A DNA stretch of 64,000 bases from the IMG/VR virus record IMGVR_UViG_3300028327_000814. The stretch is one strand, 5' to 3'. The stretch's first letter is position 1. Each line of letters starts with the position of its first letter. Positions 1 to 38,348 of the stretch are shown here, one piece after another. The DNA is from a virus. A model generated the notes under the pieces. The model was given only the letters and a program-made list of their open reading frames with translations. It was not told the origin of the DNA and did no database searches. The position numbers and the translations under genes are program-made.

Positions 1-216
1 TCAGGTGAGGTTTGTTGGGTTCAGTTTAGGCGTGGTCTGGTAAGGCAGGCTTGTTAAGGTTCGGCTTGCTCAGGTGTGGCATGGTGTGTTTCGGTAAGGC
101 AGGCGAGGCAAGGTCAGTTTTGGAGGGGTGAGGTTTGGCGTGTTCGGGTGGGTACTGGCGCGGCGTGATTAGGCAGGCATGGTACGTTGTGTTTAGGCGA
201 GTTATGGTTTGTAAGG
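1..216 (+). repeat. Non-coding 5-nt-period array of G(G/T)Y-NN units punctuated by 4-nt GGCA units; candidate guide-RNA array, truncated at window start and split by the Mu-like insertion
   Basis: Parses as ggt-ga ggt-tt gtt-gg gtt-ca gtt-ta ggc-gt ...; the boundary motif T(A/T)AGGCAGGC recurs at ~41-50, 95-104 and 169-178; the register resumes at 36306. Confidence 0.85.
211..216 (+). repeat. Left copy of 6-bp target-site duplication GTAAGG
   Basis: Identical hexamer at 36300-36305; these copies bound an element with symmetric end repeats. Confidence 0.85.
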
Positions 217-223
217 TGAACAC

Positions 224-258
224 GCAAGCAAACAGAACTAAAAACGCAAGAGAATAGA
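224..258 (+). promoter_or_regulatory. Left-end putative transposase-binding sites
   Basis: GCAAGCAAACAGA (224-236) and GCAAGAGAATAGA (246-258), 22 bp apart. Confidence 0.75.
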
Positions 259-297
259 ACCATATAAATAATTGCACATAGAGCAATGTCTTTACAT

Positions 298-918
298 TTA
301 TCTATATTTTTCTTCGATTTTTGTTTTTCTTGATTGATATTCTATTGCAGCATCAAAAGGTTCACCGGCGATTTCGGCCTCTTCCTTCAAACGTCTCACT
401 TCCCGTTTTGCGGCGGCCAAGGCTGCTTCCTTTTCTTCGGTTTTTTGTTCTGGGGTAAGATTTGCTAATCGTGCCGCTTCGTTTTGTTCTGCAATTTCTC
501 TTTGCTGTGTCTGGGAAAGTTTATCAGGTAATATTGCATCTTGAGGTAATGATTCTCCAATTTGTTCAATTTTTTGTTTGTTCCAACTTCCGTCTTGTAT
601 TATCCAGTATTCCGTATCCCTCCAGTCGGCTATAATATCACCTGAAAATTGTAGTCTCTCATGAGGATCTAGATTGTCTAGTATACTTTTCAATCTTTTT
701 CCCTCGTCATCATCAACATTTTTTTTCCCCTGGCCAAGATGGGAAAATACTACATTTTCTGCCAAGAGTTCTTCGCGTGTTTTTTTGAGCAAAATATCAG
801 GGGTTTTTGCAATTATAGCCTCAACCTTGGCATTTGTTTCTTCAGGATCAGGTGATGCATTTTCAATACCAATAATAATTTGATAACTTTCAATTTCTAC
901 GAAAGTAATTGTTTTCAT
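298..918 (-). CDS. Probable tail-fibre assembly chaperone (Tfa-like)
   Basis: IADWRDTEYW...KIEQIGESLP resembles tail-fibre assembly proteins; lies at the tail end of the prophage. Confidence 0.55.
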   Translation of the reverse strand: MKTITFVEIESYQIIIGIENASPDPEETNAKVEAIIAKTPDILLKKTREELLAENVVFSHLGQGKKNVDDDEGKRLKSILDNLDPHERLQFSGDIIADWRDTEYWIIQDGSWNKQKIEQIGESLPQDAILPDKLSQTQQREIAEQNEAARLANLTPEQKTEEKEAALAAAKREVRRLKEEAEIAGEPFDAAIEYQSRKTKIEEKYR

Positions 919-1081
919 TAAAAAACCTCCATAATTGTTACCATGTTAAATCTTAATATGCTCCTAATCATAATAACCGTCATTATTGTAAATAATCCTT
1001 ATTTATGGAGCATTGCAGAAGTTTGCCCATGCCATGCTTTTTTTGCTTATGTTCTGCTATGGTCAACAGCAGGAGGCTTTT

Positions 1082-2056
1082 ATGCAGATAAAAAATTATG
1101 CGGATTTATTTTCGCAAGACGGTTTCTGGCGTGTCAAACGCGCAGAAAAGAAAAAATTTTACACGGACAAGTCGATGGACACAAGGGACGCTGTAATGCG
1201 AAACTGGGTGGTTCCGCTATGGGGAGAAATTAACCCCAAGCGGCTTACTGTCAAAATGATTGACCGAGCGATGATGGGCACCACGTCGAAGCTGACCAAG
1301 CGCACATTGGCGGGAGCGACACGGAACAGAATTTTGTCGGTGTTATCGGAAATGTATGTTCACTTAATCGAGGAAGGAAAATCGCGGATAAACCCTGTTA
1401 GGGACGTTGTGCGGTGTAATTCATACCCCGAACACCCCAGAGGCGTATTGCCGTTAAATGATTTGAAATTACTGTTTCCTGATAATCTTGCAGAATTAAA
1501 ACAAATATGGCGGACGCAAAAATACATCTGCGCGTTTTTGATACTCAGGGACACGGGTATACGCCCTGGGGAATTAGTCGCGCTCAGATGGGGTGATTGG
1601 GATTCAGATATTAAATTCTTTCCAATTTTAAAAGCGCTTGAATCGGGCAGCAAAAATAAAATTAAAGGGACAAAAACAGGTTCAACCAAGCCAGCGATTA
1701 TTACGGATCAGACCGCAGAGGAAATAGAGCGTCTGAAGAAAAAAGTAAAGCCCAAACCTGAAGATTATATTTTTGCCAACAAACACGGCATACCTTACGG
1801 CACCCACCGTCTGTCGTGGAATTTCCGCAAGTCTGTGGAACGCGCCGGAATTGACAAGCCGTATCTCACGCCCTACTGGCTGCGGCACACGTTTAATTCC
1901 ATTTTACTAGAAACTAACTCTACTAAGGTGGTACAGCTCTTAATGGGGCATAACACCGAAGCCATGACGCGCCATTACCGCCACGCGGGGGTTGAATCAT
2001 TGGCGCGAACCGCTGTAAAAATTAGAGATGAGGTTAACGCCTGTAGATTGTACTGA
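1082..2056 (+). CDS. Tyrosine recombinase, candidate shufflon invertase
   Basis: RDTGIRPGE, GTKT, YWLRH, LMGH and RHY catalytic motifs; AGGAGG before ATG 1082 (ORF track starts at TTG 1013); adjacent to the cassette array. Confidence 0.9.
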   Translation: MQIKNYADLFSQDGFWRVKRAEKKKFYTDKSMDTRDAVMRNWVVPLWGEINPKRLTVKMIDRAMMGTTSKLTKRTLAGATRNRILSVLSEMYVHLIEEGKSRINPVRDVVRCNSYPEHPRGVLPLNDLKLLFPDNLAELKQIWRTQKYICAFLILRDTGIRPGELVALRWGDWDSDIKFFPILKALESGSKNKIKGTKTGSTKPAIITDQTAEEIERLKKKVKPKPEDYIFANKHGIPYGTHRLSWNFRKSVERAGIDKPYLTPYWLRHTFNSILLETNSTKVVQLLMGHNTEAMTRHYRHAGVESLARTAVKIRDEVNACRLY

Positions 2057-2259
2057 CCCTTGAGGATTGGGAGGGGAAATTATTTAATAAACCGAATCTG
2101 GTATTATTGCATTACCGACAATACTTTGAAATGTAGTAGCAGGAGTCCACCACACAAAAGGCCTACTATTAGGTGGATGTCTTTAAAATTGACCACTAAT
2201 AAAAAATTTTCCAATTTCATAACGGCATTGTTTGCCTTCTTTTTTATGGGTGCATTCGT

Positions 2260-2448
2260 TCATTGTATATTTAACCCTTTTGAGAAATCTATTTTTTTCC
2301 AGTTTTCAGGGATTTTAGCCCCCTCTAAGCAACAATGCATTTGGCCGTTTTCGTCTATGTAATAATAATACCGAATACCTAACGGCGGACAAGCTTCAAA
2401 GCTGTCCACTATCGTCTTCAACATAATTTCCCCCTCATGCTTAAGCAT
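2260..2448 (-). CDS. Small hypothetical protein with its own promoter
   Basis: 62-aa ORF with a sigma70-like promoter immediately upstream. Confidence 0.45.
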   Translation of the reverse strand: MLKHEGEIMLKTIVDSFEACPPLGIRYYYYIDENGQMHCCLEGAKIPENWKKIDFSKGLNIQ

Positions 2449-2454
2449 ACTATT

Positions 2455-2483
2455 ATAGTAATTCCTCTATAATTTTTTGTCAA
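2455..2483 (-). promoter_or_regulatory. sigma70-type promoter
   Basis: TTGACA-17-TACTAT on the minus strand. Confidence 0.6.
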
Positions 2484-2492
2484 GCAATTTCT

Positions 2493-2757
2493 TTATGATG
2501 GAAATTCCATTGGAGCATACAATAGTGATAAAATACTGACACAAGTAGGATCGTTTGATGTACCAAGTTTTTGGAGCGGTCGTCTAGTGGTAAATCCAAC
2601 TGGAATTATACAAATATTAGGCACAAATACAAATTATGATAGCATCGTAAGCAACCCTTCTCAACAACAGTTACAGTACAAAATACAAGTGGGCTTTGGC
2701 TCCGGGTCGGAGACTAAACCAGTATCTACCTCCGTTTTAGTTTGTATTGCCTATTAA
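2493..2757 (+). other. Silent fibre C-terminal cassette D (87 aa, no start codon)
   Basis: Hand translation is open: YDGNSIGAYNSDKILTQVGS...GSETKPVSTSVLVCIAY-stop. Confidence 0.88.
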
Positions 2758-2761
2758 TTCT

Positions 2762-3017
2762 TTATGATGGAAACGCAATAGGAAGTATAATTGGGGACGC
2801 TATACGGAATATGGAAGGTTCTGTCGGATCGGGAATTGGGCTGTTTGCTAATATACAATCTGGGGTTTTTTCTTTAGACACCACAACAACAGATGTGTAT
2901 CAAGTCGGTACTGGAAACGGCTATAAAACATTAAAATTTAGAGCAAGTAACGTTGTGCCAACCGCTTACGAAAATCGTCCTGCCAGCATCAGTTTTTTGG
3001 TCTGTGTTACCTATTGA
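2762..3017 (+). other. Silent fibre C-terminal cassette C
   Basis: YDGNAIGSIIGDAIRN...YENRPASISFLVCVTY-stop. Confidence 0.88.
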
Positions 3018-3038
3018 TCATTCCGTCAGCGGAAAACT

Positions 3039-3261
3039 TTAATAGGTAATGCAAACTAGAGCGGATATTGACGCGGGGCGGTTTTCGTAGCTTCCGTTAA
3101 AATTTGATGTAGCGTATGTAACTGTATCAAAGCTGTAAACACCAAATTCATGCCCCCCTAAATTATAAGAGGCACTATTTTTATGTGCAAATCCATCTAA
3201 GGGATGCAAATGTGTTTTTAACGCGTCACTGATAAACGCCCCAATCGAATTTCCATCATAA
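3039..3261 (-). other. Silent fibre C-terminal cassette B
   Basis: YDGNSIGAFISDALKTHLH...YENRPASISALVCITY-stop. Confidence 0.88.
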
Positions 3262-3268
3262 GGAATTA

Positions 3269-4057
3269 TCAGTAAGTGATGCAAACAAGGACTGAAAAAG
3301 ACACAGGTTTTGTTTCCGAGTCGCCGTAATAACCTGTATAAGCTTCAGTGTTTGTTACACTCCCGTCAGTTCGCGGCCAATACCTTACATCTCCGAAAAG
3401 ATTATTTCCGACATCTGCAACGCCTATAGATTTGGTATGCAGGTGTGAGCGAACCGCGTCACTCTGATATGTCCCAATTGCGTTTCCATCATAAGGCGTG
3501 GATAATGGATTATTCATATTAGTACGGTAATATGAATTCTGTCCGGCTGCTCGAGGGAAAAGACCACTTATGTCCAAAAGTCTAAAATATAAACCTGTTA
3601 TACTTCTTGTACCGTCTATATTGCATCTATACCACCAAAGAGCATTATTGTTATTGTCATCACCTACATACATTAAATCAAACAAATCTTGATACAACTC
3701 TATTTTAAAAATTTCACCTTTAAGAGGTAAAAGATGCATCTTAATAAGCTGCTCTACAGATGGTTCATAAGCTAACATTACAAGTTCACCAACTCTTCGT
3801 GGTGCAAATCCTTTCTGCATAGCTTTTTTAAGTTGTTCCGGATCCGTATTGTTTGGATCTAACCCAATTTCACTGATTAGATTTTCCATGTTATCAATCA
3901 AGAGATTGAATGTTGCTGCAGGGATATGGGACGGTTTTTTCAGCGGGTCGGAAAAATCCCCGTCGGTAAATTTATGCGTTTCCGGGTCAAGACCGGGATA
4001 CATAACTTGTTCCCCGAAAATTTCAAGTAACTGATCATCTGGATACATTCCTGGCAT
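3269..4057 (-). CDS. Tail fibre (constant N-terminus plus currently expressed cassette A)
   Basis: Follows the gp48-like gene; Mu-type fibre N-terminus; collar-like LPLKG and GLFPRAAG; ends ETKPVSFSVLVCITY. Confidence 0.85.
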   Translation of the reverse strand: MPGMYPDDQLLEIFGEQVMYPGLDPETHKFTDGDFSDPLKKPSHIPAATFNLLIDNMENLISEIGLDPNNTDPEQLKKAMQKGFAPRRVGELVMLAYEPSVEQLIKMHLLPLKGEIFKIELYQDLFDLMYVGDDNNNNALWWYRCNIDGTRSITGLYFRLLDISGLFPRAAGQNSYYRTNMNNPLSTPYDGNAIGTYQSDAVRSHLHTKSIGVADVGNNLFGDVRYWPRTDGSVTNTEAYTGYYGDSETKPVSFSVLVCITY

Positions 4058-4068
4058 TTTAATTCCTC

Positions 4069-4764
4069 CTAAAGTTTATATAAAAAATAAGCAATATTGC
4101 TTGCTATTAATTTGTCGTTTACATCCCGCTCAAAATCATCAAGTATTTCTATTTCTGAAAAAATGCGACTTGAGTAGTCCTTAATAAAAAAAGAACGTCT
4201 AAAAAAATGACCTATACCAAAGCAGCCTTGGCCAAATGAAGAGTTTTTTATCAATTTAGTTATACAATTTTTTGCTTCAATTCTTAATTCTTCATTTTGA
4301 AACGCCGCTATAACATAAAACACCGAATAAAAAGCGGGACGTGAAAATATAGAACGGCCAAATTTGGAGAACCCAAAAAACGAAGGTTTAAACGGAAAAA
4401 TTATATCAATCAATGTCAGACCGTATTTTTGAGCAATATCCGCAATCAATATGCGGTTAATTAATGGAGTTTTTTTTGTCGCTAATATTTTCCGGCGTTC
4501 TTCGATAGGCAGGTGAATATTTGTATATCCCAAAAGGACACGTTCCCAATCGTCTATGCTTTCAACCGCGGTTTGATAATCACTCTCTGCAAGTAAATCA
4601 CTCATTCGTTTTCGCAAATTAATAATTTCTTTTGATTTTGCTTTACAAAATAAATTTAAGTCGGATTCAGGATCAGCAAATTGTTTTTTCCAATATTCAC
4701 CCTGGGGAAACAGATCGCGGATTGCTCCGCTGTAATCTTTTTCAGTAGCCACATTTATACCCAT
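4069..4764 (-). CDS. Baseplate wedge protein (Mu gp48-like, DUF2313)
   Basis: LFPQGEYW and ESIDDWERVLLG; position after the J-like gene. Confidence 0.75.
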   Translation of the reverse strand: MGINVATEKDYSGAIRDLFPQGEYWKKQFADPESDLNLFCKAKSKEIINLRKRMSDLLAESDYQTAVESIDDWERVLLGYTNIHLPIEERRKILATKKTPLINRILIADIAQKYGLTLIDIIFPFKPSFFGFSKFGRSIFSRPAFYSVFYVIAAFQNEELRIEAKNCITKLIKNSSFGQGCFGIGHFFRRSFFIKDYSSRIFSEIEILDDFERDVNDKLIASNIAYFLYKL

Positions 4765-5822
4765 GTTATAGTCCCCAGTACCGGATATTCCAATATTGTT
4801 GTCGATATAATACCGATGATATTCCCCGACAGTTTTATTACTGCGTCTGTTATTGTTACGCCATCAATGACGGCAGTTTTCAACATTCCGGAAGTTATCT
4901 GAATACCCGGCTTTGCGATTTGCTGGAGATATGCTTTTAAGCGCGTTTCCACCAGTTCAATGTTTTTCTGGGTATTCTCAAACGGCATCAATTTTATTTC
5001 AGGATTTAAGGGAATAAGCGAAGGCGTACGCACGTCAAAAATGACCGGAGGAGATACCGTGCTGATATAATTCCGTACTGCCGCAAGGTTTTTTACCTGA
5101 TGGACGCCGCTCATTTGATTGCCGTTTATCACCTGTATAAGCAATGCCCCAAACACCCCGAAATTTCTGAATTCCCATGCGGCGGAAACTTCCGGTGTCG
5201 CGTCCAGCGCCCATGCCTCAAAATCTTTATACTGACCATACCTGTTGGGATTACGCAAAGTAACAAGGACTCTGACAAGATATTCTTCATCGCTTTCAGC
5301 GTCTACCCCCCCAAGAATACCTTCGTCACCAACTTTGGCGTCTGAATCAATGCCAGCCGGAATTGAGGAGACAATACTTAACGGGCTGCCTGTTTCAAGA
5401 TTAGAATCTTTCCCCGCATTTTCCGCTTTTACATTGACAATCACTTTACCGTTACTCGAAATATTATAAGCTTTTTCAGTGAAGTATCTTTTACCTGAAG
5501 CGCTTTTAAAGACAATGCCGGCCGGCGCTGGTTTTCCTGCAATGCCGTTTACTTCGACATTTCCAATTGCCGCTACCGCATACAACGGCGGTACTATCAT
5601 GGACCAATGAGATCTCAAATATTCGCCTTCGGCGGTATCCGGAAACAGTTGTTTTGACAGAAAAACCAAATCACCTTGCAAAAGATGAGACAGGCCGGCA
5701 TCGACATTCGCCATCACTGAAACAAGGTTATAACGCGGCGTCCTGTCCATCGGTTTGAACAGGCTCAAATAATTGGCTGCCGTCCTTTCTTTCAGGACTT
5801 GTAAACTATCTCTGTTAAACAT
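4755..5822 (-). CDS. Baseplate J-like protein (Mu gp47)
   Basis: QLFPDTAEGEYL, GGVDAESDEEY and DFEAWAL motifs; start placed at ATG 5822. Confidence 0.88.
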   Translation of the reverse strand: MFNRDSLQVLKERTAANYLSLFKPMDRTPRYNLVSVMANVDAGLSHLLQGDLVFLSKQLFPDTAEGEYLRSHWSMIVPPLYAVAAIGNVEVNGIAGKPAPAGIVFKSASGKRYFTEKAYNISSNGKVIVNVKAENAGKDSNLETGSPLSIVSSIPAGIDSDAKVGDEGILGGVDAESDEEYLVRVLVTLRNPNRYGQYKDFEAWALDATPEVSAAWEFRNFGVFGALLIQVINGNQMSGVHQVKNLAAVRNYISTVSPPVIFDVRTPSLIPLNPEIKLMPFENTQKNIELVETRLKAYLQQIAKPGIQITSGMLKTAVIDGVTITDAVIKLSGNIIGIISTTILEYPVLGTITWV

Positions 5823-6156
5823 CTTTCCAAACATCCTTAATAAAAATACTGCCGCCGTCTGGCTGTATTGTTTCAACGGTGTATGAAATTACATTTTTGC
5901 CGGTACGTTCAACGGCACAATTTATTTGCCGGGCAAGTCCGTCAGTTACAATCCATGAAAGACATTCCTGCAGCATCCGTTTAAAATTCCCCGCTGTTTT
6001 TTCGTCAACTTTGCCGTTCTCCCTTAATAAGTAAAGTTCGCTTCCGAAATTTGGATCTGCCCACCACGAGCCTTTATCAGTGCCGATACTCATTTGCACA
6101 AGTTCGCGGATGTCTGTCCAGTTTTCGACAGCTACCGTTTTATTTGCCTGTTCCAT
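5815..6156 (-). CDS. Mu gp46-like baseplate protein
   Basis: GSWWAD...GSELYLL, LSWIVTDGLA. Confidence 0.8.
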   Translation of the reverse strand: MEQANKTVAVENWTDIRELVQMSIGTDKGSWWADPNFGSELYLLRENGKVDEKTAGNFKRMLQECLSWIVTDGLARQINCAVERTGKNVISYTVETIQPDGGSIFIKDVWKDV

Positions 6157-6709
6157 GCAACACCTTTTTATTTTCCAAGTTTGAAAAATCTTCTTTATTA
6201 ACCAATGCAGCTAACATTGCGGCAATTTGCGCTTTATATGTCGCGCCGCCGTCCTGTACGGCAGTCTGCGAATTTTTGAGCGCGTCTATAATCCCGTCAA
6301 CACGAGCCGACAATTTATTAAGCTGGCTTTCAAGCTCGGCGGCTTTGACTACGCCGCCGGCATCGGTTCCAAAAAGTTCCAGCGTCCCTTTTTCCCGCGC
6401 TATTATCCAACCGCCTTCTTGGGTATACAGCGCGGAATCGCCTTCTTCCAATTGCGGCGGGCATACTTCGTCATCAGCCGTTAGTGGCATAATTTCAAAG
6501 CCGCCGAAATCCCCTCCCTGACAAAAAACAAACGTCTTGCCTGTTTTAGCTTTGGCGGTAAAGCCATAGGGAAACGCTTCTTTTTTTTCTATGACCCTGC
6601 CGGAATGTGTTTTTACCTGCAGTCTGCCGTCATCATAACGTTTTTCAAATTTGGCTATTGAGAAAGTGTTACGAATTTTGGCTCTTATTTGACCAAACAA
6701 ATCATTCAC
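6140..6709 (-). CDS. Baseplate spike (Mu gp45-like)
   Basis: PYGFTA...LEEGDSALY; synteny. Confidence 0.75.
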   Translation of the reverse strand: MNDLFGQIRAKIRNTFSIAKFEKRYDDGRLQVKTHSGRVIEKKEAFPYGFTAKAKTGKTFVFCQGGDFGGFEIMPLTADDEVCPPQLEEGDSALYTQEGGWIIAREKGTLELFGTDAGGVVKAAELESQLNKLSARVDGIIDALKNSQTAVQDGGATYKAQIAAMLAALVNKEDFSNLENKKVLHGTGK

Positions 6710-11551: not shown

Positions 11552-11560
11552 GACGTTCCC

Positions 11561-28560: not shown

Positions 28561-28626
28561 ATACAATAACCGCCATTAGGGGAAATATAACGGCGGCCTG
28601 TTTTAAATTATAAAGCGGAGGGATTT

Positions 28627-28950: not shown

Positions 28951-28953
28951 ACA

Positions 28954-29247: not shown

Positions 29248-29248
29248 A

Positions 29249-29800: not shown

Positions 29801-29811
29801 GGAGAGACAAG

Positions 29812-30051: not shown

Positions 30052-30057
30052 AACCCC

Positions 30058-30261: not shown

Positions 30262-31723
30262 AGACGTACTCCTTCCTTACCAAAAAGCGTGGATAGAAGA
30301 CAAGTCCAGCGTCAAAGTCTGGGAGAAATCCCGGCGCATTGGAGCGTCTTATGTCGAAGCGTTGGACTCGGTACTGGAAGGCGCAAAGTCAAAAGAGGCG
30401 GGCGGTCAATCTACATATTACCTTTCCTATTCCAAAGAAATGACACAGCAATTTGCGAGGGACTGCGCGTTCTGGGCAAAACACATAAACGCCGCCGCTT
30501 CCGAACTTGAAGAAATCGTACTCAATGATGAGGACAAAGATATTACCGTCTACCGCATACGTTTCGCATCAGGCTTTGAAATATGGTGTCTGCCGTCTGT
30601 CGCTCGTTCGCTCCGTTCCAAACAGGGACGGGTTATCATTGACGAAGCGGCGTTTGTCGAAGATTTGGGTGCACTCTTAAAAGCGGCGATGGCGCTTCTT
30701 ATGTGGGGCGGTTGCGTCAGGATTTTATCAACGCATAACGGCGATGATAATCCGTTCAACGAACTTATCAAAGAGATAAAAGAAGGGAAAAAAGACTACA
30801 GCCTCCACCATACCACATTTGACGAAGCTCTGGCGCAGGGTTTATATAAACGAATTTGCCTTGTTCAAAAAAAAGAATGGTCGCCTGAAGCGCAGGAAGT
30901 TTGGCGGCAGAAAATTATTGACGAATACGGCGAAGACGCCGATGAAGAATTATTTTGTATTCCCGTCCGTGCCGGAACACGATACTTCCCATCGGCGTTG
31001 CTTGAGGCAGTTTCCGATCCTAGCGCAAAAGTTCTGCGTAAAACCTGCGATGACGGCTTCACTTTCGTAGAAAAAGAAAAGCGTGTCAAAGAATTTGACA
31101 CTTGGCTTAAAAACGAAGTCCGTGACACATTGCTGCTTCATACCAATCCAGTATATCTGGGCGAAGACTTTGCCCGTTCCGGCGACCTGACCGCCATATT
31201 CCTTGACGAGCTGATGCCTGACGGAAAACTGCTTACATTCCTTGTAATCGAATTGCGTAACGTGCCGTTTGACCAACAGTTGCAAGTCATTTTGTATCTT
31301 ATGAATACCGTGCCGAATTTCGGCGGCGGAGCGTTTGACTCACGAGGTAACGGTCAGATGATCGCCGAATACGCGGCGCAGGAATATCCGGGCTATGTGT
31401 ATCAGGTAATGATCACTATGGCATGGTACGGGCAAACATTCCCCAAACTGAAAGAACGAATGGAAGACGCTACCACTACCATTCCCGATGACGCTTCTAT
31501 CCGTGAGGATTTTCGGGTTGTCGGAATCAAAGCGGGCGTTCCCTGCGTGCTTGAGCGTTCCGGCGGTATCCGAGAACGGCGGCACGGCGACGGAGCGATT
31601 GCGAAACTTATGGCGGTCTACGCCGCTGACAATGACGAAGAAAAAGGCTACCAGCCTATGACATACGAATCGGTAGAAACACCTAACAGATATAAAACAG
31701 GAGGTAAAGACCCGTGGGACTGA
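30254..31723 (+). CDS. Terminase large subunit (Mu gp28-like)
   Basis: LLPYQKAW, EKSRRIGAS, IIDEAAF, GEDFARSGD, HGDGAIA. Confidence 0.93.
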   Translation: MNEDVLLPYQKAWIEDKSSVKVWEKSRRIGASYVEALDSVLEGAKSKEAGGQSTYYLSYSKEMTQQFARDCAFWAKHINAAASELEEIVLNDEDKDITVYRIRFASGFEIWCLPSVARSLRSKQGRVIIDEAAFVEDLGALLKAAMALLMWGGCVRILSTHNGDDNPFNELIKEIKEGKKDYSLHHTTFDEALAQGLYKRICLVQKKEWSPEAQEVWRQKIIDEYGEDADEELFCIPVRAGTRYFPSALLEAVSDPSAKVLRKTCDDGFTFVEKEKRVKEFDTWLKNEVRDTLLLHTNPVYLGEDFARSGDLTAIFLDELMPDGKLLTFLVIELRNVPFDQQLQVILYLMNTVPNFGGGAFDSRGNGQMIAEYAAQEYPGYVYQVMITMAWYGQTFPKLKERMEDATTTIPDDASIREDFRVVGIKAGVPCVLERSGGIRERRHGDGAIAKLMAVYAADNDEEKGYQPMTYESVETPNRYKTGGKDPWD

Positions 31724-33303
31724 TAGAGGATATAAAAAAACGGTTTAACAAAAAAGACGCTTCCAATTCAAGCGACAGCGATGAGCAGGCAAGCGCCGTT
31801 CAATATACAAACCGCCACCCTTGGGGTGATTTTTCGCTATTGAACAGTTTAACGCCGGAACGCCTTGCGACAATTCTCAACGATGTCAGGCGTGGCGAAT
31901 GCCCTGCCGAATATTTGGAACTGTCGCAGGATATTGAACTGCGTGATCTGCATTACCGCTCCGTGCTTTCCACACGCAAAGACGCTATTACAGGGCTTGA
32001 AATAAAAGTCATTCCGGCAGGCGAAGGTGAAAAAGAAAAGGAACTTGCCGAGGCTGTAGAACGTGACATCGTTAAAAACTCAAGCGCAAAACTTCGTTCA
32101 TTGCTACGAAATATGCTTGACGCTCTTGGCAAAGGTTTTTCCGTCAATGAAATTATCTGGGATACAGGAAGCGTTCCGTGGAAACCGAAAGCGTACAAAT
32201 TCCGGGACCCCCGCTGGTTTCAATACGACAGGGAAACCGGAGACAATCTTATGTTACGCGCTCCATACGGAAACGATCTTGAACAGCTCAAGCCTTTTCA
32301 ATTTGTCGTACACGAGCCGCACTTAATCAGCGGAAAACAAATCACCGCAGGGCTTGCGCTTCCGGCGTTATTTTATTGGATGCTCAAAACTTACAACGTA
32401 ACAAGCTGGGCGGCGTTCATTGACCGCTACGGCTATCCGATCCGCATCGGCAAATACGGCAAAAAATTCACCGAAGAGGATCGAGTTACGCTCAAAAGAG
32501 CGGTCGCCGCCATTGGTCAGGATTTCGGCGCTATCATTCCCGAAAGCGCACAGCTTGAAATTATCGAATCCAAAAGCACCGGCGAAAAGTCAAACGTATA
32601 TAACAACATGGCGGACTGGATCGACAAACAGATCAGCAAACTTGTACTCGGTCAGACTATGACCACAGACGAAGGCGCAAGCAGGGCGCAGAGCGAGACT
32701 CACGAAAAAGTTCGTGACGATATTGCCGACAGCGACATTCAGCAGATTGTCGATACGTTGAACGCCGCATTGACCGTTCCTTACATTAACCTTAACTTTG
32801 GCGAGCAGAGCGAATACCCAAAGATAGACCTTTTCAAACCCGATGAAAAAAACATAGAGCAGATAATTACGGCGGTTAAAGAATTGGGACCGCTAGGGTT
32901 AGAAGTCAAAGCTGATGAAGTCCGCTCGCTTATCGGTCTATCCAATCCCGATCCCAAAGATGAAGTAATCGGCGGCAGATCATCCTATCCGCAAGACCCC
33001 TCTACAAATCTTGACGATTTAAATTCGGCTCGGAAAATCGCGCTCAACTCCGCCGCAAATAATGAACCTGCCGACAGTGTTGACGAACTGGACGCTGAAA
33101 ACGAGAACGGTTATGTCGCAATCTCCGACGAGATCGCAAGCGTGATTGAAAAAGCGGCTGATGCCGCTGTCGATTTTGAGTCATTCCAAAAGGAACTGAC
33201 AAAACTGGTTACCGGCTGGGCGCCGGATAAAATCGCCGAATGTATCGCCGTGGCGACATTCAAAGCAAGAGCGCTTGGAAGCGCAGAGTTTGACGATGAA
33301 TAA
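31714..33303 (+). CDS. Portal protein (Mu gp29, DUF935)
   Basis: DLHYRSVLSTRK, WAAFIDRYGYP, ISKLVLGQTMTT. Confidence 0.93.
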   Translation: MGLIEDIKKRFNKKDASNSSDSDEQASAVQYTNRHPWGDFSLLNSLTPERLATILNDVRRGECPAEYLELSQDIELRDLHYRSVLSTRKDAITGLEIKVIPAGEGEKEKELAEAVERDIVKNSSAKLRSLLRNMLDALGKGFSVNEIIWDTGSVPWKPKAYKFRDPRWFQYDRETGDNLMLRAPYGNDLEQLKPFQFVVHEPHLISGKQITAGLALPALFYWMLKTYNVTSWAAFIDRYGYPIRIGKYGKKFTEEDRVTLKRAVAAIGQDFGAIIPESAQLEIIESKSTGEKSNVYNNMADWIDKQISKLVLGQTMTTDEGASRAQSETHEKVRDDIADSDIQQIVDTLNAALTVPYINLNFGEQSEYPKIDLFKPDEKNIEQIITAVKELGPLGLEVKADEVRSLIGLSNPDPKDEVIGGRSSYPQDPSTNLDDLNSARKIALNSAANNEPADSVDELDAENENGYVAISDEIASVIEKAADAAVDFESFQKELTKLVTGWAPDKIAECIAVATFKARALGSAEFDDE

Positions 33304-33622
33304 AATTACGCGGATGGTATTTGGTCAAAATATAAAATATTACCGCAAAAAAAAAGACTGGACGCAACTTCGCTTGGGTATGGAATTAGGATTATCCCAG
33401 CCTACTATAGCACAATACGAATTGGGGATATATAGAAAAATGACAAGTAAAAAAAGTTTACAGTTTGCAAACGCGCTCGATGTTGAAGTATGGCAGTTAT
33501 TCGATTCAAACAATAATTCTTCAGGCAACGAAGATTTAGGTTTAACCGCCTATAGCAGAGAAATTAAAAGAAAAAGGCGGCAAAAGGATCGGTGTACAAA
33601 ACGTCTTGGACGTTTTATATAA
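33296..33622 (+). CDS. XRE-family HTH protein
   Basis: NIKYYRKKKDWTQLRLGMELGLSQPTIAQYELG. Confidence 0.7.
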   Translation: MNKITRMVFGQNIKYYRKKKDWTQLRLGMELGLSQPTIAQYELGIYRKMTSKKSLQFANALDVEVWQLFDSNNNSSGNEDLGLTAYSREIKRKRRQKDRCTKRLGRFI

Positions 33623-33638
33623 AAGCAAGGAGTAAGTT

Positions 33639-33908
33639 ATGAAAACATCGTTGGAAGAATTAAACACGCATCTGTTTGAAACTATTGAATGGCTGACAGA
33701 CAGGGACATCAGAAATGAAGAACTTGATCAAGAAATCAGAAGGGCTGAAACGGTTTGTAAGGTTGCAAGCGCAATTATCAGCAATGCCCAAACGGTTTTA
33801 TCGGCTTATAGGACAGCCGATGAAGTGGCGAATAATTTGCCGGAATGGATCGAAGGCAAAAAAATAAAACAACAACAACTTACCGATAAAACAAAAGGAC
33901 AAAAATAA
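33639..33908 (+). CDS. Hypothetical protein preceding the HNH gene
   Basis: LEELNTHLFETIEWL; AAGGAG upstream. Confidence 0.65.
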   Translation: MKTSLEELNTHLFETIEWLTDRDIRNEELDQEIRRAETVCKVASAIISNAQTVLSAYRTADEVANNLPEWIEGKKIKQQQLTDKTKGQK

Positions 33909-34519
33909 TGCGCATGAACCGCTGGTACACGCCGGAAGAAATCCAGTTCGTTAAAAAGAACATCAAAGGACGCACTTACCTTAAATTGCTTGCGATGTTC
34001 AATAAGCGGTTTAAACTCAGTTTGTCTTTGAAACAATTTCAAACCCTGACGTATAAGCATGGATTACGTAACGGCATCGGTAAATTTAAACCTGGCCATA
34101 AACCTTTTAATAAAGGGATAGATACAAAACAATGGAAAAAAATCTGTAAGGTGCGAAAAGATTATATACCCATTGGGAGCGAAAGAACCTCTAAGAATCA
34201 ATGCAAAGAATATGTCGATGTTAAAATCGGAGAAGCAAAATGGAAAAGAAAGCATGTTTTAATTTGGGAAGAGGCAAACGGTAAAGTGCCTAAAGGCCAT
34301 GTTGTTATTTTTGCGGACGGAAATCAAAAAAACTTCGCTCTGGAAAACCTCTTATTGGTGTCAAGGAAGGAACTTGGAGTGATGAATAGTTCCGGACTTA
34401 TATTTAATAATGGAGAATTTACCAAAATTGGTAAAACAATCGCGAATGTTAAAATGACTATTGAAAAACAAAAGAGAAAAATTAAAAAGAAAGGGAAGAG
34501 GAAAAAAGAGGTGTGCTAA
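33908..34519 (+). CDS. HNH endonuclease (HNH_3-like)
   Basis: KHVLIWEEANGKVPKGHVVIFADGNQKNFALENL. Confidence 0.82.
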   Translation: MRMNRWYTPEEIQFVKKNIKGRTYLKLLAMFNKRFKLSLSLKQFQTLTYKHGLRNGIGKFKPGHKPFNKGIDTKQWKKICKVRKDYIPIGSERTSKNQCKEYVDVKIGEAKWKRKHVLIWEEANGKVPKGHVVIFADGNQKNFALENLLLVSRKELGVMNSSGLIFNNGEFTKIGKTIANVKMTIEKQKRKIKKKGKRKKEVC

Positions 34520-35982
34520 TGGCAGACATAATTCCAAAAGTCGCATTGGACTACATAAAAAATAAAAATCTCAAGGTTGGTTTTTCTTACAAAGACGTAT
34601 GGAACGAAGAACACGCCACCGCTTTCACAATCGCCAAAGCCATGCAGATTGACGTACTTTCCGATTTACATAACGCCGTAATTCAGGCTGTTGAAAAAGG
34701 GCAGTCTTTTGAGTCATTCAAAAAAAATATAAAACCAACGCTTCAACAAAAAGGCTGGTGGGGTCGCAAAAAAATGGAAGATCCGCTTACCGGAAAAACA
34801 GTTGACGCATTGCAAGGTAGCGATCGCAGATTGAAAACCATCTATAGCACCAATATGCGTTTCGCATATCAAGAAGCGCAATATAAACGAACAATGGAAA
34901 GCGATCTTCATCCGTATTTCAGATATTGCTTGGGTGTCAGCGATAAGCATCGCAAAGAACACGAAAACTGGAATGGTATAGTTCTTCCAAAAGATGATCC
35001 GTGGTGGGATTCCCATTTTCCGCCAAAAGGTTGGGGTTGCAAATGCTACACCAGAGCCGTAACGGAAAGCCAAAAGAAAAAATATGAAGCCGAAGGTATA
35101 CCGGTTCCGACTCGGGCAGACGGTACTGGCGGCGGAAATATTAAAATAAAAACCAAAGCGCCGCCGGAAGAGTACACAACCTTTTTCAACGAACGCAAAG
35201 GCACTGTTGAGAAAGTTCCTAAAGGTGTCGATCCTGCGTTTAATAGTAAGCCGGGGAGGGTTTCACGGCAGGAAGCGGCAAAACAAAAACTCGCAGATTC
35301 GGAACGCAATTACAAGGCGAGTGCGGCAGGGTTTACAGATGAAATACCAAGTCCACCTAAAGTTGATGCAAAGGCAAGACGCATTCCCGACAGTGAGGAC
35401 ATAAAGAAAAAATTCTCCGAAATCGGAATCAGTTATATTGACCTTCAAGGTTTACCGGATGAAGTAAAGAAAATGATTTTTGAAAAAACAAAAAATGTCG
35501 TTGAGCGCTTCCCATTGGCTCGGAAAGCAGTGCCCGGAATTGTAGCTGACTTTGAGATGCCAGACGCTGACTTTGCTAAAACTAACAAGAAAACAGGGGA
35601 AATCAGGTTGAATGGAAACTGGTTTGCAAACATCTCGCAGTTTAGAAAATATTTTAACTCCCTTGTCCAGAAAGGAGACTTTCCGGCAGGGACAGACTGT
35701 CTTGATAACGTGACGCACGAATTTGGTCACGCAATAGTTCGAAAGCTCGCAGAAAATGGTAAAGTTGATAAATTTTGCGCTGGACTCCAAGACTATGTTC
35801 TGGTAAAATTAAAGAAAGATATTGCCGATATTGGAACAGGGCTTTCTAAAAATGCCTTGGAATGTCCGGCAGAATTTGTTGCTGATGGTTTCAATGAATT
35901 TGTAAACGTGGTGTCGGCACGAAAAATGGCAAAAGAACTTGGCAGGGCTTTAATCTATCTTTTGGGAGCAAAAAAATGGTGA
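34519..35982 (+). CDS. MuF head morphogenesis protein with C-terminal HExxH domain
   Basis: RRLKTIYSTNM, FPPKGWGCKC; C-terminal VTHEFGH ... AEFVADGF. Confidence 0.85.
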   Translation: MADIIPKVALDYIKNKNLKVGFSYKDVWNEEHATAFTIAKAMQIDVLSDLHNAVIQAVEKGQSFESFKKNIKPTLQQKGWWGRKKMEDPLTGKTVDALQGSDRRLKTIYSTNMRFAYQEAQYKRTMESDLHPYFRYCLGVSDKHRKEHENWNGIVLPKDDPWWDSHFPPKGWGCKCYTRAVTESQKKKYEAEGIPVPTRADGTGGGNIKIKTKAPPEEYTTFFNERKGTVEKVPKGVDPAFNSKPGRVSRQEAAKQKLADSERNYKASAAGFTDEIPSPPKVDAKARRIPDSEDIKKKFSEIGISYIDLQGLPDEVKKMIFEKTKNVVERFPLARKAVPGIVADFEMPDADFAKTNKKTGEIRLNGNWFANISQFRKYFNSLVQKGDFPAGTDCLDNVTHEFGHAIVRKLAENGKVDKFCAGLQDYVLVKLKKDIADIGTGLSKNALECPAEFVADGFNEFVNVVSARKMAKELGRALIYLLGAKKW

Positions 35983-36161
35983 GAGTACAAAGTTGGTGGC
36001 ATTCTAAATATCTTGAACCCGGAACTATAAAGATAAAAGACGGCACGCCCGCCGATGAACGTCGTAAACTTGAAACCGCTATTGCAACATGGCAATCTCC
36101 GCCTGTAGAAAACCCAATGACAGCGCAAGATATTGCAAAACTTATGGGCGAAAAACTTTAA
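35976..36161 (+). CDS. Small protein overlapping the MuF stop (candidate immunity)
   Basis: 61 aa, last gene of the prophage. Confidence 0.45.
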   Translation: MVRVQSWWHSKYLEPGTIKIKDGTPADERRKLETAIATWQSPPVENPMTAQDIAKLMGEKL

Positions 36162-36257
36162 TTTTTTAATAAAGATTGACTGCTTTTTTATTACACTATA
36201 TGCAAAGTCTTTACATTCTCTATCCCTATAAATTCCGCTAAATTCCTCAAATTCCCG

Positions 36258-36291
36258 TCTATTCTCTTGCATTTATAAATCTATTCTCTGC
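36258..36291 (-). promoter_or_regulatory. Right-end putative transposase-binding sites
   Basis: Reverse complements GCAAGAGAATAGA (36258-36270) and GCAGAGAATAGA (36280-36291). Confidence 0.75.
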
Positions 36292-36299
36292 TGTGATGA

Positions 36300-36323
36300 G
36301 TAAGGCAAGGTTTGGCGGGGCAA
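36300..36323 (+). repeat. Right TSD copy plus distal remnant of the GGY-NN array
   Basis: GTAAGG-c aa ggt tt ggc gg ggc aa. Confidence 0.8.
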
Positions 36324-36350
36324 TCTATTTTAATTCTTAAGGAGTGGTTT

Positions 36351-36854
36351 ATGAAAGGGATTTATTCATGGAAAACAGGCAGTCATTGTAAAGGTGACGC
36401 CTCTAAAGTCGGCGCGGAATTGGAAACAATAGGCGAACAGGTAACGCCTGAAAATGTTGTCGCTTTTGCCGCGAAACATAAAAAGTCGGAATTGCACGGC
36501 GAGTTTGAATGGGACAATGAAACCGCAGGTCATTTACACCGCCTTAATCAGGCGAGGCATTTACTGGCTTGCATTATCATTGAACGGGAAGTGCAAACGC
36601 CTAAAGGGAAAAAAGAAGTCGTTATTACAAGGGCTTATGAAAATGTGAAAGTGGCGGATAATGACGAAACTGAAAAGCGCGTGTATGTGCCGATTGACGT
36701 TGCATTGACCGTACCCGAACATAGGGACTTTGTAATCAGCGGCATTTTCAAGGCTATTCAAGACTTGCAAGACAAGGCGCGTGTATATGACGGCTATTTG
36801 AAAAATCCAGTCAAGTTTAATACCGGGCTTAATACGGCGTTAAAAGCGGTTTGA
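36351..36854 (+). CDS. Conserved phage protein of unknown function downstream of the pentamer array
   Basis: AAGGAG before ATG 36351; VTPENVV..ELHGEFEWDN..AGHLHRLNQAR motif, which I recall occurring beside such arrays. Confidence 0.75.
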   Translation: MKGIYSWKTGSHCKGDASKVGAELETIGEQVTPENVVAFAAKHKKSELHGEFEWDNETAGHLHRLNQARHLLACIIIEREVQTPKGKKEVVITRAYENVKVADNDETEKRVYVPIDVALTVPEHRDFVISGIFKAIQDLQDKARVYDGYLKNPVKFNTGLNTALKAV

Positions 36855-36856
36855 CT

Positions 36857-36902
36857 ATATGGCAGATATTGTTAAATAAAACGTATCTGCCATATTTTCT
36901 TT
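36857..36902 (+). terminator. 12-bp inverted repeat with T-tract, overlapping the portal promoter
   Basis: ATATGGCAGATA (36857-36868) / TATCTGCCATAT (36884-36895), then TTTCTTT. Confidence 0.5.
36867..36896 (+). promoter_or_regulatory. Putative late promoter (first of six)
   Basis: TATTGTTAAA with CATATT 24 bp after motif start; same geometry at 41054, 46962, 49059, 49911 and 62163. Confidence 0.65.
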
Positions 36903-38348
36903 ATGACAATTTATGAAGTATTAGCCAAATTCGGGCAGAGGACGGACAGGCTTAATAAAACGCCTTTTACTTTTGACTTTGACGCAATAGCCGAAGCGAG
37001 AAACGAATACAACAAGTTTGTGGAGGAATGGCAAAATTACTATAACGGCACGGTAACTGACATTCATTCCTACAAAAGATTTAACGGCATAAGAACCCAT
37101 GACGTTAAAAGACGCTCCATGAGATTAGCAAAACAGATAACCAAAAAATGGGCGGCCACCCTTTTTAGCGAGGCTTTTCAAGTTACGCTGAAAGATGATG
37201 ACGAAACGGAGAAATTCAACAAACTTGCTAAGGCGGTGGGGTTCAGGGCGAAACTTAACAACGCCGCCATATCGGGTTACGCTCTGGGGACTTCGGTACT
37301 TTTGGCGAGCGCGGACATAATCAAAACGGGCGAAAAGACAAGCGGGGGGAAAGTAAAGTTAGACCTTATCCGTTATCCCAACATCTACCCCATATCCTAC
37401 ACCCAGGACGAGGTTTTAACCGTGGCTTTTGTAAGGACTGAAAAATCAAAAGACGCTGAAAAGTTTTATATAAGCATACACACCGTGGGAGACAAAACGA
37501 CGATTGAGAACACGATAGCGACCGTTAAAAATAACGAGGTTACATGGGAAGACTTGCCGCTGGTGGAAATGCTGACTTCCCCTTTCGCTTGGATTAAGCC
37601 CAACACGTTAAACGACTACTCCGAAACCCTGCCTTTCGGCCAATCAATTTTCGCCGACGCTCTAGCCCCCATTGTTGACGTTGATCTTGCCGCCGCAGGA
37701 TTAAGGCGGGACTTGAAAGAGGGCGATCAGGTTACGTTCATTGGGCGGGATTTGTTACTGGAAAAAATGAAGGGGGACGACGGGGAGACGGAGAGAATAT
37801 TCGACAATTCCGAAGGCCAGTTTTTCGCCATTCCCCAAGACAACCTAAACAACGGCGAAAAGAAAAAACAGCTTTTTGAACAGCACACTCCCGAAATAAG
37901 AACCCAGCAATTCACGCAGGCGATTAAAGACTCGTTAAATTGGGCTTCCGTCAATTCAGGGCTGGGCAAAGACTCCCTAGACATACAGCCGATGGCGACC
38001 GCGACACAGGTGGTTCATTCGTCGGCAGAAAAAATGCAAAACAAGTCATTGCACGAAGCCTATCTTGAGGGCGAGATTATAAAACTGGTCAAGGCGTTAT
38101 GTGAACTTTCTACGACGGTGTTAAACCCGATAGACGCGAGCGAAGTAAGCATTGTTTGGGAAGATTCCGTGATAGTTGACACCGCCGAGCAGAAAAAACT
38201 GGCGATGATGGAAGTGGACAACGGCTTAATATCAAAAGAGGAATACCGCATGAAGTTTTACGGGGAAACGCCGGAACAGGCGCAAGAGAAGATAGCGGGG
38301 ATTGGTGAAACATCGGACGGTTTTAATTTTGAGGGCGAGAATGAATAA
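36903..38348 (+). CDS. Portal protein (A118/SPP1-like)
   Basis: 481 aa; WIKPN, GQSIFAD, TATQV, WEDSVIVD, RMKFYGET. Confidence 0.88.
   Translation: MTIYEVLAKFGQRTDRLNKTPFTFDFDAIAEARNEYNKFVEEWQNYYNGTVTDIHSYKRFNGIRTHDVKRRSMRLAKQITKKWAATLFSEAFQVTLKDDDETEKFNKLAKAVGFRAKLNNAAISGYALGTSVLLASADIIKTGEKTSGGKVKLDLIRYPNIYPISYTQDEVLTVAFVRTEKSKDAEKFYISIHTVGDKTTIENTIATVKNNEVTWEDLPLVEMLTSPFAWIKPNTLNDYSETLPFGQSIFADALAPIVDVDLAAAGLRRDLKEGDQVTFIGRDLLLEKMKGDDGETERIFDNSEGQFFAIPQDNLNNGEKKKQLFEQHTPEIRTQQFTQAIKDSLNWASVNSGLGKDSLDIQPMATATQVVHSSAEKMQNKSLHEAYLEGEIIKLVKALCELSTTVLNPIDASEVSIVWEDSVIVDTAEQKKLAMMEVDNGLISKEEYRMKFYGETPEQAQEKIAGIGETSDGFNFEGENE

What the first reader, a model, noticed from the sequence alone, without database searches (positions are those of the whole stretch)
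176..36937. Pentamer-array unit encodes a gapped (every third base skipped) match to the start of the portal gene: candidate RNA-guided anti-phage system
Seen: joining 176-216 to 36306-36323 restores one array unit whose variable dinucleotides read AT AC GT TA GA AT TT [irregular 4-nt unit] AA TT GG AA. The portal gene at 36903 begins ATg ACa ATt TAt GAa GTa TTa GCc AAa TTc GGg CAg. Eight of 11 regular dinucleotides are identical and the other three differ by one base (19/22 nt). The register holds across the insertion point, and the match starts exactly at the start codon. A rough hand binomial estimate (p~0.27 per base) gives ~1e-8 per position, or ~1e-3 for the whole window on both strands. 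Read as codon positions 1-2, the unit spells M-T-V-Y-E-I-L-x-K-F-G-(K/N), i.e. the portal of a close relative (self is MTIYEVLAKFGQ). Inference: constant GGY triplets act as protein-bound scaffold and NN pairs read DNA while ignoring wobble positions, so the guide would tolerate synonymous escape. The target overlaps the predicted leaderless transcription start, which fits repression of a competitor's packaging operon. From memory, this matches the recently reported VIPR-type (GGY/NN, Cas7-like effector) systems; that recollection needs checking.
Basis: partly seen in the sequence, partly recalled or inferred. Interest (0 to 1): 0.97.

Follow-up and report, generated by a model that had tools for sequence, protein, structure and literature searches.

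The report
Phage VIPR guide aimed at portal gene
The pentamer array is the guide-RNA array of a VIPR system, a CRISPR-related, phage-borne DNA-silencing system first described in 2026; its last guide spells the first 12 codons of the portal gene of related phages, and a second prophage has since split that guide in two.

Summary
This is a new member of a known kind.

- **The array.** Window 1-216 plus 36306-36323 is one GGY/NN pentamer array. A 36-kb integrase-bearing prophage (217-36299, core GTAAGG) cuts it.
- **The effector gene.** A 219-aa gene lies 26 nt upstream of window position 1, on an identical public contig. Its model has a Cas7/RAMP fold. A profile built from it hits only the solved SUSP1 Vipr protein (E 6e-6).
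- **The cassette.** vipr, the array and a 167-aa accessory gene recur together in 68 of 75 related viral loci.
- **The match.** The last guide matches the portal start at 36903 in 19 of 22 variable bases (19 of 24 if the odd unit counts). The next best site in the window scores 16 of 22. Only 1-3 of 2000 shuffles reach 19.
- **Relatives match better than self.** Portals 72-77% identical score 20-21 of 24.
- **The clade pattern.** Guides of four sister phages from termite guts likewise hit each other's terminase, tail-terminator and vipr genes at 81-92%, in codon frame. Their own alleles score lower (73-79%) where the fetched locus holds one.

Not supported or not found:
- The "leaderless promoter" at the portal start is not supported.
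- No RNA data exist.
- No perfect target was found.
- The other three guides have no target in the data searched.

The parts
1..216 (+). vrRNA array, 5' part. It holds the end of unit U1 (1-43; U1 starts 23 nt upstream of the window), then the 4-nt junction GGCA (44-47), U2 (48-97, 10 pentamers), GGCA (98-101), U3 (102-171, 14 pentamers), GGCA (172-175), and U4 units 1-7 plus the irregular unit (176-216).
   Evidence: Across 47 pentamers, position 1 is G in 47/47, position 2 is G in 32 and T in 12, position 3 is a pyrimidine in 45/47, and positions 4-5 vary. The same GGCA junctions delimit units in L005, L006 and L008.
211..216 (.). Left copy of the 6-bp core GTAAGG at the insertion junction (attL side).
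   Evidence: The junction is bridged by independently assembled public contigs.
217..36299 (.). Inserted 36-kb prophage ('phage A'). It carries a tyrosine integrase (1013-2056, +), a Mu-type portal (31714-33303), Mu F (34513-35982), Mu protease I and gpT major head (15101-17001, -), sheath, tape measure, baseplate and an HTH repressor (24569-25267).
   Evidence: Pfam hits. Gene calls of L001. Terminal inverted repeat 231-258 / 36258-36285.
36300..36305 (.). Right copy of the core GTAAGG (attR side).
36306..36323 (+). vrRNA array, 3' part: the last four pentamers of U4 (NN = AA, TT, GG, AA). The conserved array end follows.
   Evidence: It is homologous to the array ends of L005, L006 and L008.
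36351..36854 (+). 167-aa accessory gene (vap-like). The fold is weakly winged-helix-like.
   Evidence: 74-90% identical to the gene after the array in L005, L006 and L008. A homologue is the first ORF after the array in 68 of 75 viral loci. phrog_15946. AlphaFold2 pLDDT 91. Best structural matches are winged-helix regulators, at only Z about 5; Foldseek found nothing.
36857..36895 (+). Strong hairpin followed by a U-rich run: a terminator-like end of the cassette, 7 nt before the portal ATG.
   Evidence: -20.4 kcal/mol, z -7.05, 0 of 200 shuffles fold as well.
36903..36937 (+). Site matched by guide U4: codons 1-12 of the portal gene, with the skipped bases on the wobble positions.
36903..38348 (+). 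Portal gene of the host prophage ('phage B').
   Evidence: SPP1_portal; phrog_533.

Best explanation
**What the locus is.** It is a VIPR cassette carried as an extra module between the large-terminase and portal genes of a siphovirus-type prophage from a termite-gut metagenome. In order, the cassette holds:
- a small divergent HTH-like gene;
- a sigma-70-like promoter;
- vipr (219 aa, just outside the window);
- an array of four guide units joined head to tail at 4-nt GGCA junctions, with no tails between them;
- a 167-aa accessory gene;
- a terminator-like hairpin.

**How it should work (established for VIPR in the cited papers, not tested here).** Vipr protomers coat the transcript, one per pentamer. 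They hold each GGY and expose each NN pair. The NN pairs bind double-stranded DNA while skipping every third base, and this blocks transcription.

**What guide U4 targets (inferred here).** U4 is aimed at the first 12 codons of the portal gene of closely related phages, so a rival that enters or wakes in the same cell cannot make portal and cannot package. The phage's own allele differs at 3 of the 11 regular NN pairs (5 of 24 positions if the irregular unit counts). I infer that this spares it.

**Current state.** A 36-kb prophage has since integrated inside U4. It cuts off the last four units and the array's conserved end, and it moves the accessory gene 36 kb away from its promoter. In this genome the system, and probably the host prophage too, is likely crippled.
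For: **Vipr protein**
- A profile of the 219-aa family hits one PDB protein only, the SUSP1 Vipr protein 36pp (E 6.2e-6; single sequence E 0.11).
- The alignments place H35, R160, C195, E199 and R201 opposite SUSP1 H17, R138, C173, D177 and R179. These are the GGY-contacting residues named in 10.64898/2026.04.26.720927.
- The AlphaFold2 model has pLDDT 81. All but one of its 50 listed Foldseek matches are CRISPR RAMP proteins, chiefly Cas7-family (Csm3, type VII Cas7, Cmr4, Cas7-11), best E 3.5e-5.

**Array next to vipr**
- An array follows the gene in 77 of 80 related viral loci.
- The accessory gene follows the array in 68 of 75.
- A promoter-like site, TTGACA-17-GATAAT, lies upstream of vipr.

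**Target**
- 19/22 at the portal ATG; shuffles reach this 1-3 times in 2000.
- Relatives score 20-21/24 against 19/24 for self.
- No shuffled guide out of 5000 matches the portal family's N-termini as well.
- Pooled over nine clade loci, 0 of 1000 shuffles reach 21/24.

**Same behaviour in sister phages**
- L006 U1 hits this phage's vipr at 22/26, against 19/26 for its own.
- L017 U1 hits the tail-terminator gene of L006 at 22/24 and of L005 at 21/24, against 19/24 for its own.
- L008 U1 hits the terminase gene of this phage and of L012 at 26/32.
- All these hits lie on the coding strand with the skipped base on the wobble position.

**Skip-rule control**
- Seven guides reach 80% with a 1-nt skip, against one each with 0, 2 or 3 nt. 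The 3-nt case is probably a match to an array itself.
Against: - No target with a perfect match was found. The best is 21/24.
Self-binding therefore cannot be excluded.
- The guide has an internal 4-nt unit. Sister arrays have a unit junction followed by a short terminal segment at the homologous place, so the last four units may not belong to the same processed RNA.
- Guides U1-U3 have no target in 1.3 Mb of related loci or in IMG/VR.
- No RNA run holds the array, so transcription and processing are unshown.
- No uninterrupted copy of this exact array was found.
- Repressing a rival's portal helps only in some scenarios, because portal protein is a shared good in a mixed infection.
Confidence: 0.7

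Rival explanations
1. Self-regulation. The guide binds the phage's own portal start, a partial match 0.6 kb downstream of the array. It damps or times the phage's own late operon, for example by keeping packaging genes silent in the lysogen.
For: - The self match is 19/22 (86%) if the irregular unit is ignored. That is above the 80% used as a target cut-off in 10.64898/2026.04.26.720920.
- In four sister loci, guides also have significant sub-threshold matches to the phage's own genes next to the cassette.
Against: - Every case with data shows a better match to another phage's allele than to self.
- The papers report that guides searched against their own contigs never passed 80%. They also report that self-match scores lower than rival-match scores serve to avoid autoimmunity.
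- Counted over all 12 units, the self match is 79%.
Confidence: 0.12
2. Local origin without a present target. Guides in this clade are somehow copied from neighbouring phage DNA. The resemblance to the portal start is a decaying footprint of that origin, not a maintained specificity.
For: - In the window, L005, L006, L008 and L017, the self near-matches fall in or next to the genes that flank the cassette.
- No perfect target is known.
Against: - The mismatches to self coincide with the residues found in relatives (V3, I6, N8). This is not expected from random decay.
- L008 U1 matches terminase genes of another phage lineage with its first 11 units perfect.
- No guide-acquisition mechanism is known for VIPR.
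- The apparent proximity is partly an artefact, because only about 6 kb on each side was available for the sister loci.
Confidence: 0.1
3. Chance. An AT-rich guide happens to resemble an AT-rich gene start.
For: - The pattern begins with AT, as any ATG does.
- The last NN is a constant of the array end.
- A shortened 18-base version of the pattern also hits unrelated viral genes beginning MTVYEIL.
Against: - Shuffle tests on the window give 0.0005-0.0015.
- 0 of 5000 shuffles match the portal family as well.
- The register holds across the irregular unit, with 7 of 8 matches after it.
- Independent guides of sister phages behave the same way.
Confidence: 0.03

Closest known systems
VIPR systems (Vipr protein + vrRNA + vap), bioRxiv 10.64898/2026.04.26.720920; structures in 10.64898/2026.04.26.720927
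   Same: - A small stand-alone RAMP protein with conserved GGY-contacting residues.
- An adjacent array of G-G/T-Y + NN pentamers.
- One accessory gene.
- Phage-borne.
- Targets follow the 1-nt skip rule, with skipped bases on wobble positions.
- Targets lie in competing mobile elements, including rival vipr genes.
   Different: - The protein is only remotely similar in sequence to the characterised SUSP1 Vipr (single-sequence E 0.11).
- About a quarter of the units are GTT rather than GGY.
- The accessory protein has no recognisable sequence family.
- The predicted targets are structural and packaging genes (portal, terminase, tail terminator) of close relatives, which the main texts do not mention.
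- The VIPR type (I-VII) could not be assigned from the text available.
Type II VIPR of Escherichia phage SUSP1 and the Pseudomonas fulva prophage
   Same: - The Vipr fold and G-loop motif (C-G-V-G-D/E-W/M-R).
- Guides of 9-16 units.
- Repression of rival elements.
- Self-match lower than rival-match.
   Different: - SUSP1 vrRNAs are separate transcripts of about 100 nt, each capped by a conserved 3' pseudoknot tail.
- Here the units abut directly at GGCA junctions, with no tail between them.
- SUSP1 mainly targets a satellite's recombinase, not relatives' structural genes.
'Staggered vrRNA arrays' (fig. S18 legend of 10.64898/2026.04.26.720920)
   Same: The legend describes adjacent vrRNAs that overlap by 1 nt, so that the end of one marks the start of the next. 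Here GGCA-GGC can be read as GGCAG and GGCNN sharing one G.
   Different: Only the legend is available, not the figure or sequences. The identification is by description and has not been verified.
Class 1 CRISPR-Cas backbone proteins (Cas7/Csm3/Cmr4)
   Same: The best structural matches of the 219-aa protein. These proteins also form an RNA-coated filament with periodic flipped bases.
   Different: There are no CRISPR repeats or spacers, no other cas genes and no adaptation genes. The periodicity is 5 nt, not 6.

Membership tests
VIPR system | A Vipr protein: a minimal RAMP (RRM core, glycine-rich loop, thumb) related to characterised Vipr proteins. | tested here: met
   - A profile hits only the SUSP1 Vipr protein 36pp, E 6.2e-6.
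- Foldseek top matches are almost all CRISPR RAMP proteins, chiefly Cas7-family.
- H35, R160, C195, E199 and R201 align to SUSP1 H17, R138, C173, D177 and R179.
- W178 is M in this protein but W in the family consensus.
VIPR system | An adjacent array of at least 4 tandem pentamers, each with a constant GGY (or related) triplet and a variable NN pair. | tested here: met
   47 pentamers, starting 12 nt after the vipr stop. The same arrangement is seen in 77 of 80 related viral loci.
VIPR system | A vipr-accessory (vap) gene in the locus. | tested here: met
   The 167-aa gene is conserved after the array in 68 of 75 loci. Its fold is weakly winged-helix-like, as the paper predicts for some vap genes. 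Homology to a named vap1-6 was not testable.
VIPR system | Natural targets that obey the 1-nt skip rule at 80% NN match or better, with the skipped base on the wobble position. | tested here: met
   - U4 against the L012 portal: 21/24.
- Sister guides score 81-92% on the terminase, tail-terminator and vipr genes of other clade members, all in frame.
- The 1-nt skip outperforms 0, 2 and 3 nt.
VIPR system | The array is transcribed and processed into vrRNAs that bind Vipr and repress the target. | not testable with these tools
   No RNA run holds the sequence. Only a promoter-like site upstream of vipr was found.
Type II VIPR (SUSP1-like architecture) | Each vrRNA ends in a conserved structured 3' tail (a pseudoknot). 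| tested here: not met
   Units abut at 4-nt GGCA junctions with no intervening tail in all five clade arrays. Rfam finds nothing in the intact sister array.
CRISPR-Cas (class 1) | A repeat-spacer array with repeats of about 24-40 nt, plus further cas genes. | tested here: not met
   There are no such repeats in the window. The neighbouring genes are terminase, portal and phage structural genes.

The most novel reading that the evidence does not exclude
In this termite-gut phage clade the VIPR cassette works as a linked weapon-and-immunity unit. Its guides are aimed at rival alleles of conserved phage genes, often the very genes that flank the cassette: portal here, Mu F, tail terminator, tail tube and vipr itself in sister phages. 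The flanking self allele carries just enough NN mismatches to escape. Tight linkage of the guide to its resistant allele would stop recombination from producing self-targeting genomes. It would also let the cassette and its flanking allele spread together through a recombining phage population. The logic resembles that of homing endonucleases and their resistant target sites, but works by silencing rather than cutting.
Probability: 0.3. Interest if true: 0.7.

Novelty: new member of a known kind. Interest (0 to 1): 0.45.

Why it matters
VIPR was described only in 2026, and its natural targets are known for just a few clades: a satellite's recombinase, and prophage regulators.

This locus adds a clade in which the predicted targets are the packaging and structural genes, and the vipr genes, of close relatives. 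Several phages from one habitat target one another, and each phage's own allele sits just below the matching threshold. That gives a concrete, testable picture of how much mismatch separates self from rival for a gapped guide.

It is also a natural case of a guide array disrupted by another prophage. The system itself is not new.

Tried and rejected
- **Whole genome.** None is held for this window. The upstream sequence came from an identical public contig, L001 (0 mismatches over 10,918 nt).
- **Exact gapped scans of IMG/VR.** U4, U1, U2 and U3 gave no hits.
- **Shortened pattern.** An 18-base version of U4 hit three unrelated genes beginning MTVYEIL (two of them homologous to each other), so it is uninformative.
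- **Portal search in JGI metagenomes.** It returned a single relative, which has no VIPR cassette.
- **Empty site.** No contig with the uninterrupted array was found.
- **RNA.** No RNA run holds the array.
- **Generalising the "guide resembles own neighbouring gene" pattern.** This failed for the wider Vipr family. Only 2 of 251 units from 77 viral loci beat all 200 shuffles (1.25 expected), and both come from the close termite-gut clade. The pattern is clade-specific or reflects sampling.
- **Weaker self matches.** The L006 U5 and L008 U3 self matches lose significance when pooled (33 and 106 of 1000 shuffles).
- **Accessory protein.** No Pfam, PADLOC or PDB sequence hit, and no Foldseek hit.
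- **Rfam.** Nothing in a sister array.
- **Genome collection.** It gave only distant Vipr relatives (39-52% identity) in Desulfosporosinus, Lachnospiraceae, Chloracidobacterium, Rhizobium and Martelella, so the host remains unknown.
- **VIPR type.** It could not be read from the papers' text or supplement.
- **Complex prediction.** Not run.
Full report
**What is in the sequence**

The + strand of window 1-216 is a run of pentamers whose first three bases are constant and whose last two vary. Over 47 pentamers:
- position 1 is G in all 47;
- position 2 is G in 32 and T in 12;
- position 3 is a pyrimidine in 45;
- positions 4-5 vary freely.

The run is divided by a 4-nt element, GGCA, at 44-47, 98-101 and 172-175. 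This gives units of 12, 10 and 14 pentamers and then a fourth unit that starts at 176.

At 216/217 the array breaks off. It resumes at 36306 with four more pentamers and then a short conserved end. The hexamer GTAAGG stands at both junctions (211-216 and 36300-36305).

No whole genome is held. An identical public contig, L001 (0 mismatches over 10,918 nt), supplies the DNA upstream of window position 1.

**The array is one array, split by an insertion**

- Three sister loci (L005, L006, L008) carry the same kind of array uninterrupted. It starts CTT-GGCA-GGC right after the stop of the upstream gene. It ends in GGCAAT(C/T)T(A/T)TTTTA, a ribosome-binding site and a 166-173-aa gene that is 74-90% identical to window 36351-36854.
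- The end of the L008 array is homologous to the window sequence across the junction.
- The inserted 36 kb is a prophage. It encodes a tyrosine integrase at its left end, a Mu-type portal, Mu F, protease I, gpT capsid, sheath, tape measure, baseplate and an HTH repressor.
- The left junction is present in independently assembled public contigs of termite-gut metagenomes. The right junction is present in another.
- No uninterrupted copy of this exact array was found.

**The effector gene exists**

A 219-aa gene ends 26 nt upstream of window position 1, and the array starts 12 nt after its stop codon.

- *Sequence families.* It has no Pfam or PADLOC family. It belongs to phrog_4652.
- *Family size.* 4282 clusters at 50% identity.
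- *Solved relatives.* A profile of 28 members hits one PDB protein only, the SUSP1 Vipr protein (36pp), at E 6.2e-6.
- *Conserved residues.* The aligned stretch is the glycine-rich loop. H35, R160, C195, E199 and R201 stand opposite SUSP1 H17, R138, C173, D177 and R179, which the structural paper names as the contacts to the GGY bases.
- *Fold.* The AlphaFold2 model (pLDDT 81) matches almost only CRISPR RAMP proteins, chiefly Cas7-family backbone proteins of type III, VII and I complexes.

**The cassette**

- A promoter-like site (TTGACA-17-GATAAT, 11 of 12) lies upstream of vipr.
- A small HTH-like gene lies divergent from it and is conserved in the sister loci.
- An array follows the vipr gene in 77 of 80 related viral loci.
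- A homologue of the 167-aa gene is the first gene after the array in 68 of 75.
- The model of that accessory protein is confident (pLDDT 91). It resembles winged-helix DNA-binding domains only weakly (Z about 5).
- A strong hairpin with a U-rich tail closes the cassette 7 nt before the portal ATG.
- In sister phages the same cassette sits elsewhere in the structural module: after Mu F in L005, and between tail terminator and tail tube in L006 and L008.
- A portal relative, L010, lacks the cassette.
- The cassette is therefore a mobile extra module.

**The gapped match**

- *In the window.* With one base skipped per unit, U4 matches 36903-36937 in 19 of 22 positions. The match starts on the ATG of the portal gene, and the skipped bases fall on the wobble positions. 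The next best site in 74 kb is 16 of 22.
- *Shuffles.* Shuffled guides reach 19 in 1 of 2000 (dinucleotide order) and 3 of 2000 (bases) trials.
- *The irregular unit.* It can be read as a unit missing one G, with NN = AA. The self match is then 19 of 24.
- *Relatives.* The peptide spelled is M-T-V-Y-E-I-L-(N/K)-K-F-G-(K/N). Portals 72-77% identical to this one begin MTVYEILTKF or MTVYEILNKY. At the DNA level L012 matches 21 of 24, with the first nine units perfect. L011 and L013 match 20 of 24. Self and L010 match 19 of 24.
- *Family-level control.* No shuffled guide out of 5000 fits the N-termini of the portal family as well.
- *Not found.* A perfectly matching allele.

**The same behaviour in sister phages**

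I scanned the 20 guides of the five clade arrays against nine clade loci. Several hits at or above the published 80% cut-off appeared, all on the coding strand and in codon frame:

| Guide | Target | Match | Own allele |
|---|---|---|---|
| L006 U1 | this phage's vipr | 22/26 | 19/26 |
| L017 U1 | tail terminator of L006 | 22/24 | 19/24 |
| L017 U1 | tail terminator of L005 | 21/24 | 19/24 |
| L008 U1 | terminase of this phage and of L012 | 26/32, first 11 units perfect | not in its locus |

Each of these beat all 1000 shuffles. With skips of 0, 2 or 3 nt the signal disappears.

In the wider family (Vipr 45-58% identical) guides show no excess of near-matches to their own loci. The mutual targeting is therefore a property of this close clade, or of how densely it was sampled.

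**How it most likely works**

The following steps are established for VIPR by the cited papers and were not tested here:
- the filament forms on the RNA;
- the NN pairs bind DNA with one base skipped per unit;
- transcription is silenced on either strand.

The following are inferred from the matches:
- U4 silences the portal gene of related phages;
- the self allele escapes through its mismatches.

The papers report the same self-below-rival pattern for other guides.

A block to elongation or read-through at the 5' end of the gene is enough.

The insertion removes the last four units and the array's end. It also separates the accessory gene from its promoter, and it puts 36 kb into the terminase-portal junction of the host prophage. 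Both the system and the host prophage are probably disabled in this genome.

**Comparison and verdict**

- *Membership.* The locus meets every VIPR feature that could be tested. It does not have the tailed-vrRNA architecture of the type II exemplar. Its junctions fit the paper's description of staggered arrays, but only the figure legend could be read.
- *Targets.* The main texts do not mention portal, terminase or tail genes as targets.
- *Earlier scan notes.* They record VIPR arrays in other genomes. Two of them have guides that spell the neighbouring gene as it occurs in rival phages. My own tests on this clade point the same way.
- *Verdict.* A new member of a known kind, with a moderately interesting target pattern and an unusual disruption.

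Noticed in passing
window 217-36299: A complete-looking prophage sits inside another prophage. It combines Mu-type head genes with a tyrosine integrase. Its portal and Mu F genes are on the + strand at the right end, while protease, capsid and tail genes are on the - strand. Its left-end segment 223-261 occurs at about four times the depth in other sequence contexts in the same metagenomes, so related elements sit at other sites.
   Followed up: partly
window 2489-2528, 2755-2782, 3226-3268, 3459-3494: A set of 21-40-nt inverted repeats (78-95% complementary) lies next to the integrase and the distal tail genes of the inserted prophage. It looks like an invertible tail-fibre segment.
   Followed up: no
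window 45696-46685: A second tyrosine integrase gene lies in the middle of the host prophage's head-tail module, between the tail-completion and major-tail genes. Parts of it are 77-85% identical in DNA to the inserted prophage's integrase (repeats at 1871-1998 and 46503-46630). In sister phages this is the same kind of slot that holds the VIPR cassette.
   Followed up: partly
window 48417-48616 and 61734-61927: Two direct repeats of about 200 nt, 70-74% identical, overlap small - strand ORFs of 112 and 113 aa. They look like paralogous small genes flanking the tail region.
   Followed up: no
L001:12960 region (about 2 kb upstream of window position 1) and L001:11123 region: This phage is itself a predicted target. 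Guide U1 of L008 matches its terminase gene at 26/32, and guide U1 of L006 matches its vipr gene at 22/26.
   Followed up: yes
window 38579-40657: The minor capsid protein 2 carries a C-terminal stretch that matches DUF3626 (E 1.8e-6), an unusual addition to this head protein.
   Followed up: no
L006:11739-12660: A reverse-transcriptase gene (RVT_1) follows the very long tail tube gene in a sister phage. It may be a diversity-generating retroelement.
   Followed up: no
window 26-286, - strand: An 86-aa ORF is listed across the array on the opposite strand. It is a by-product of the repeat composition, not a gene.
   Followed up: partly
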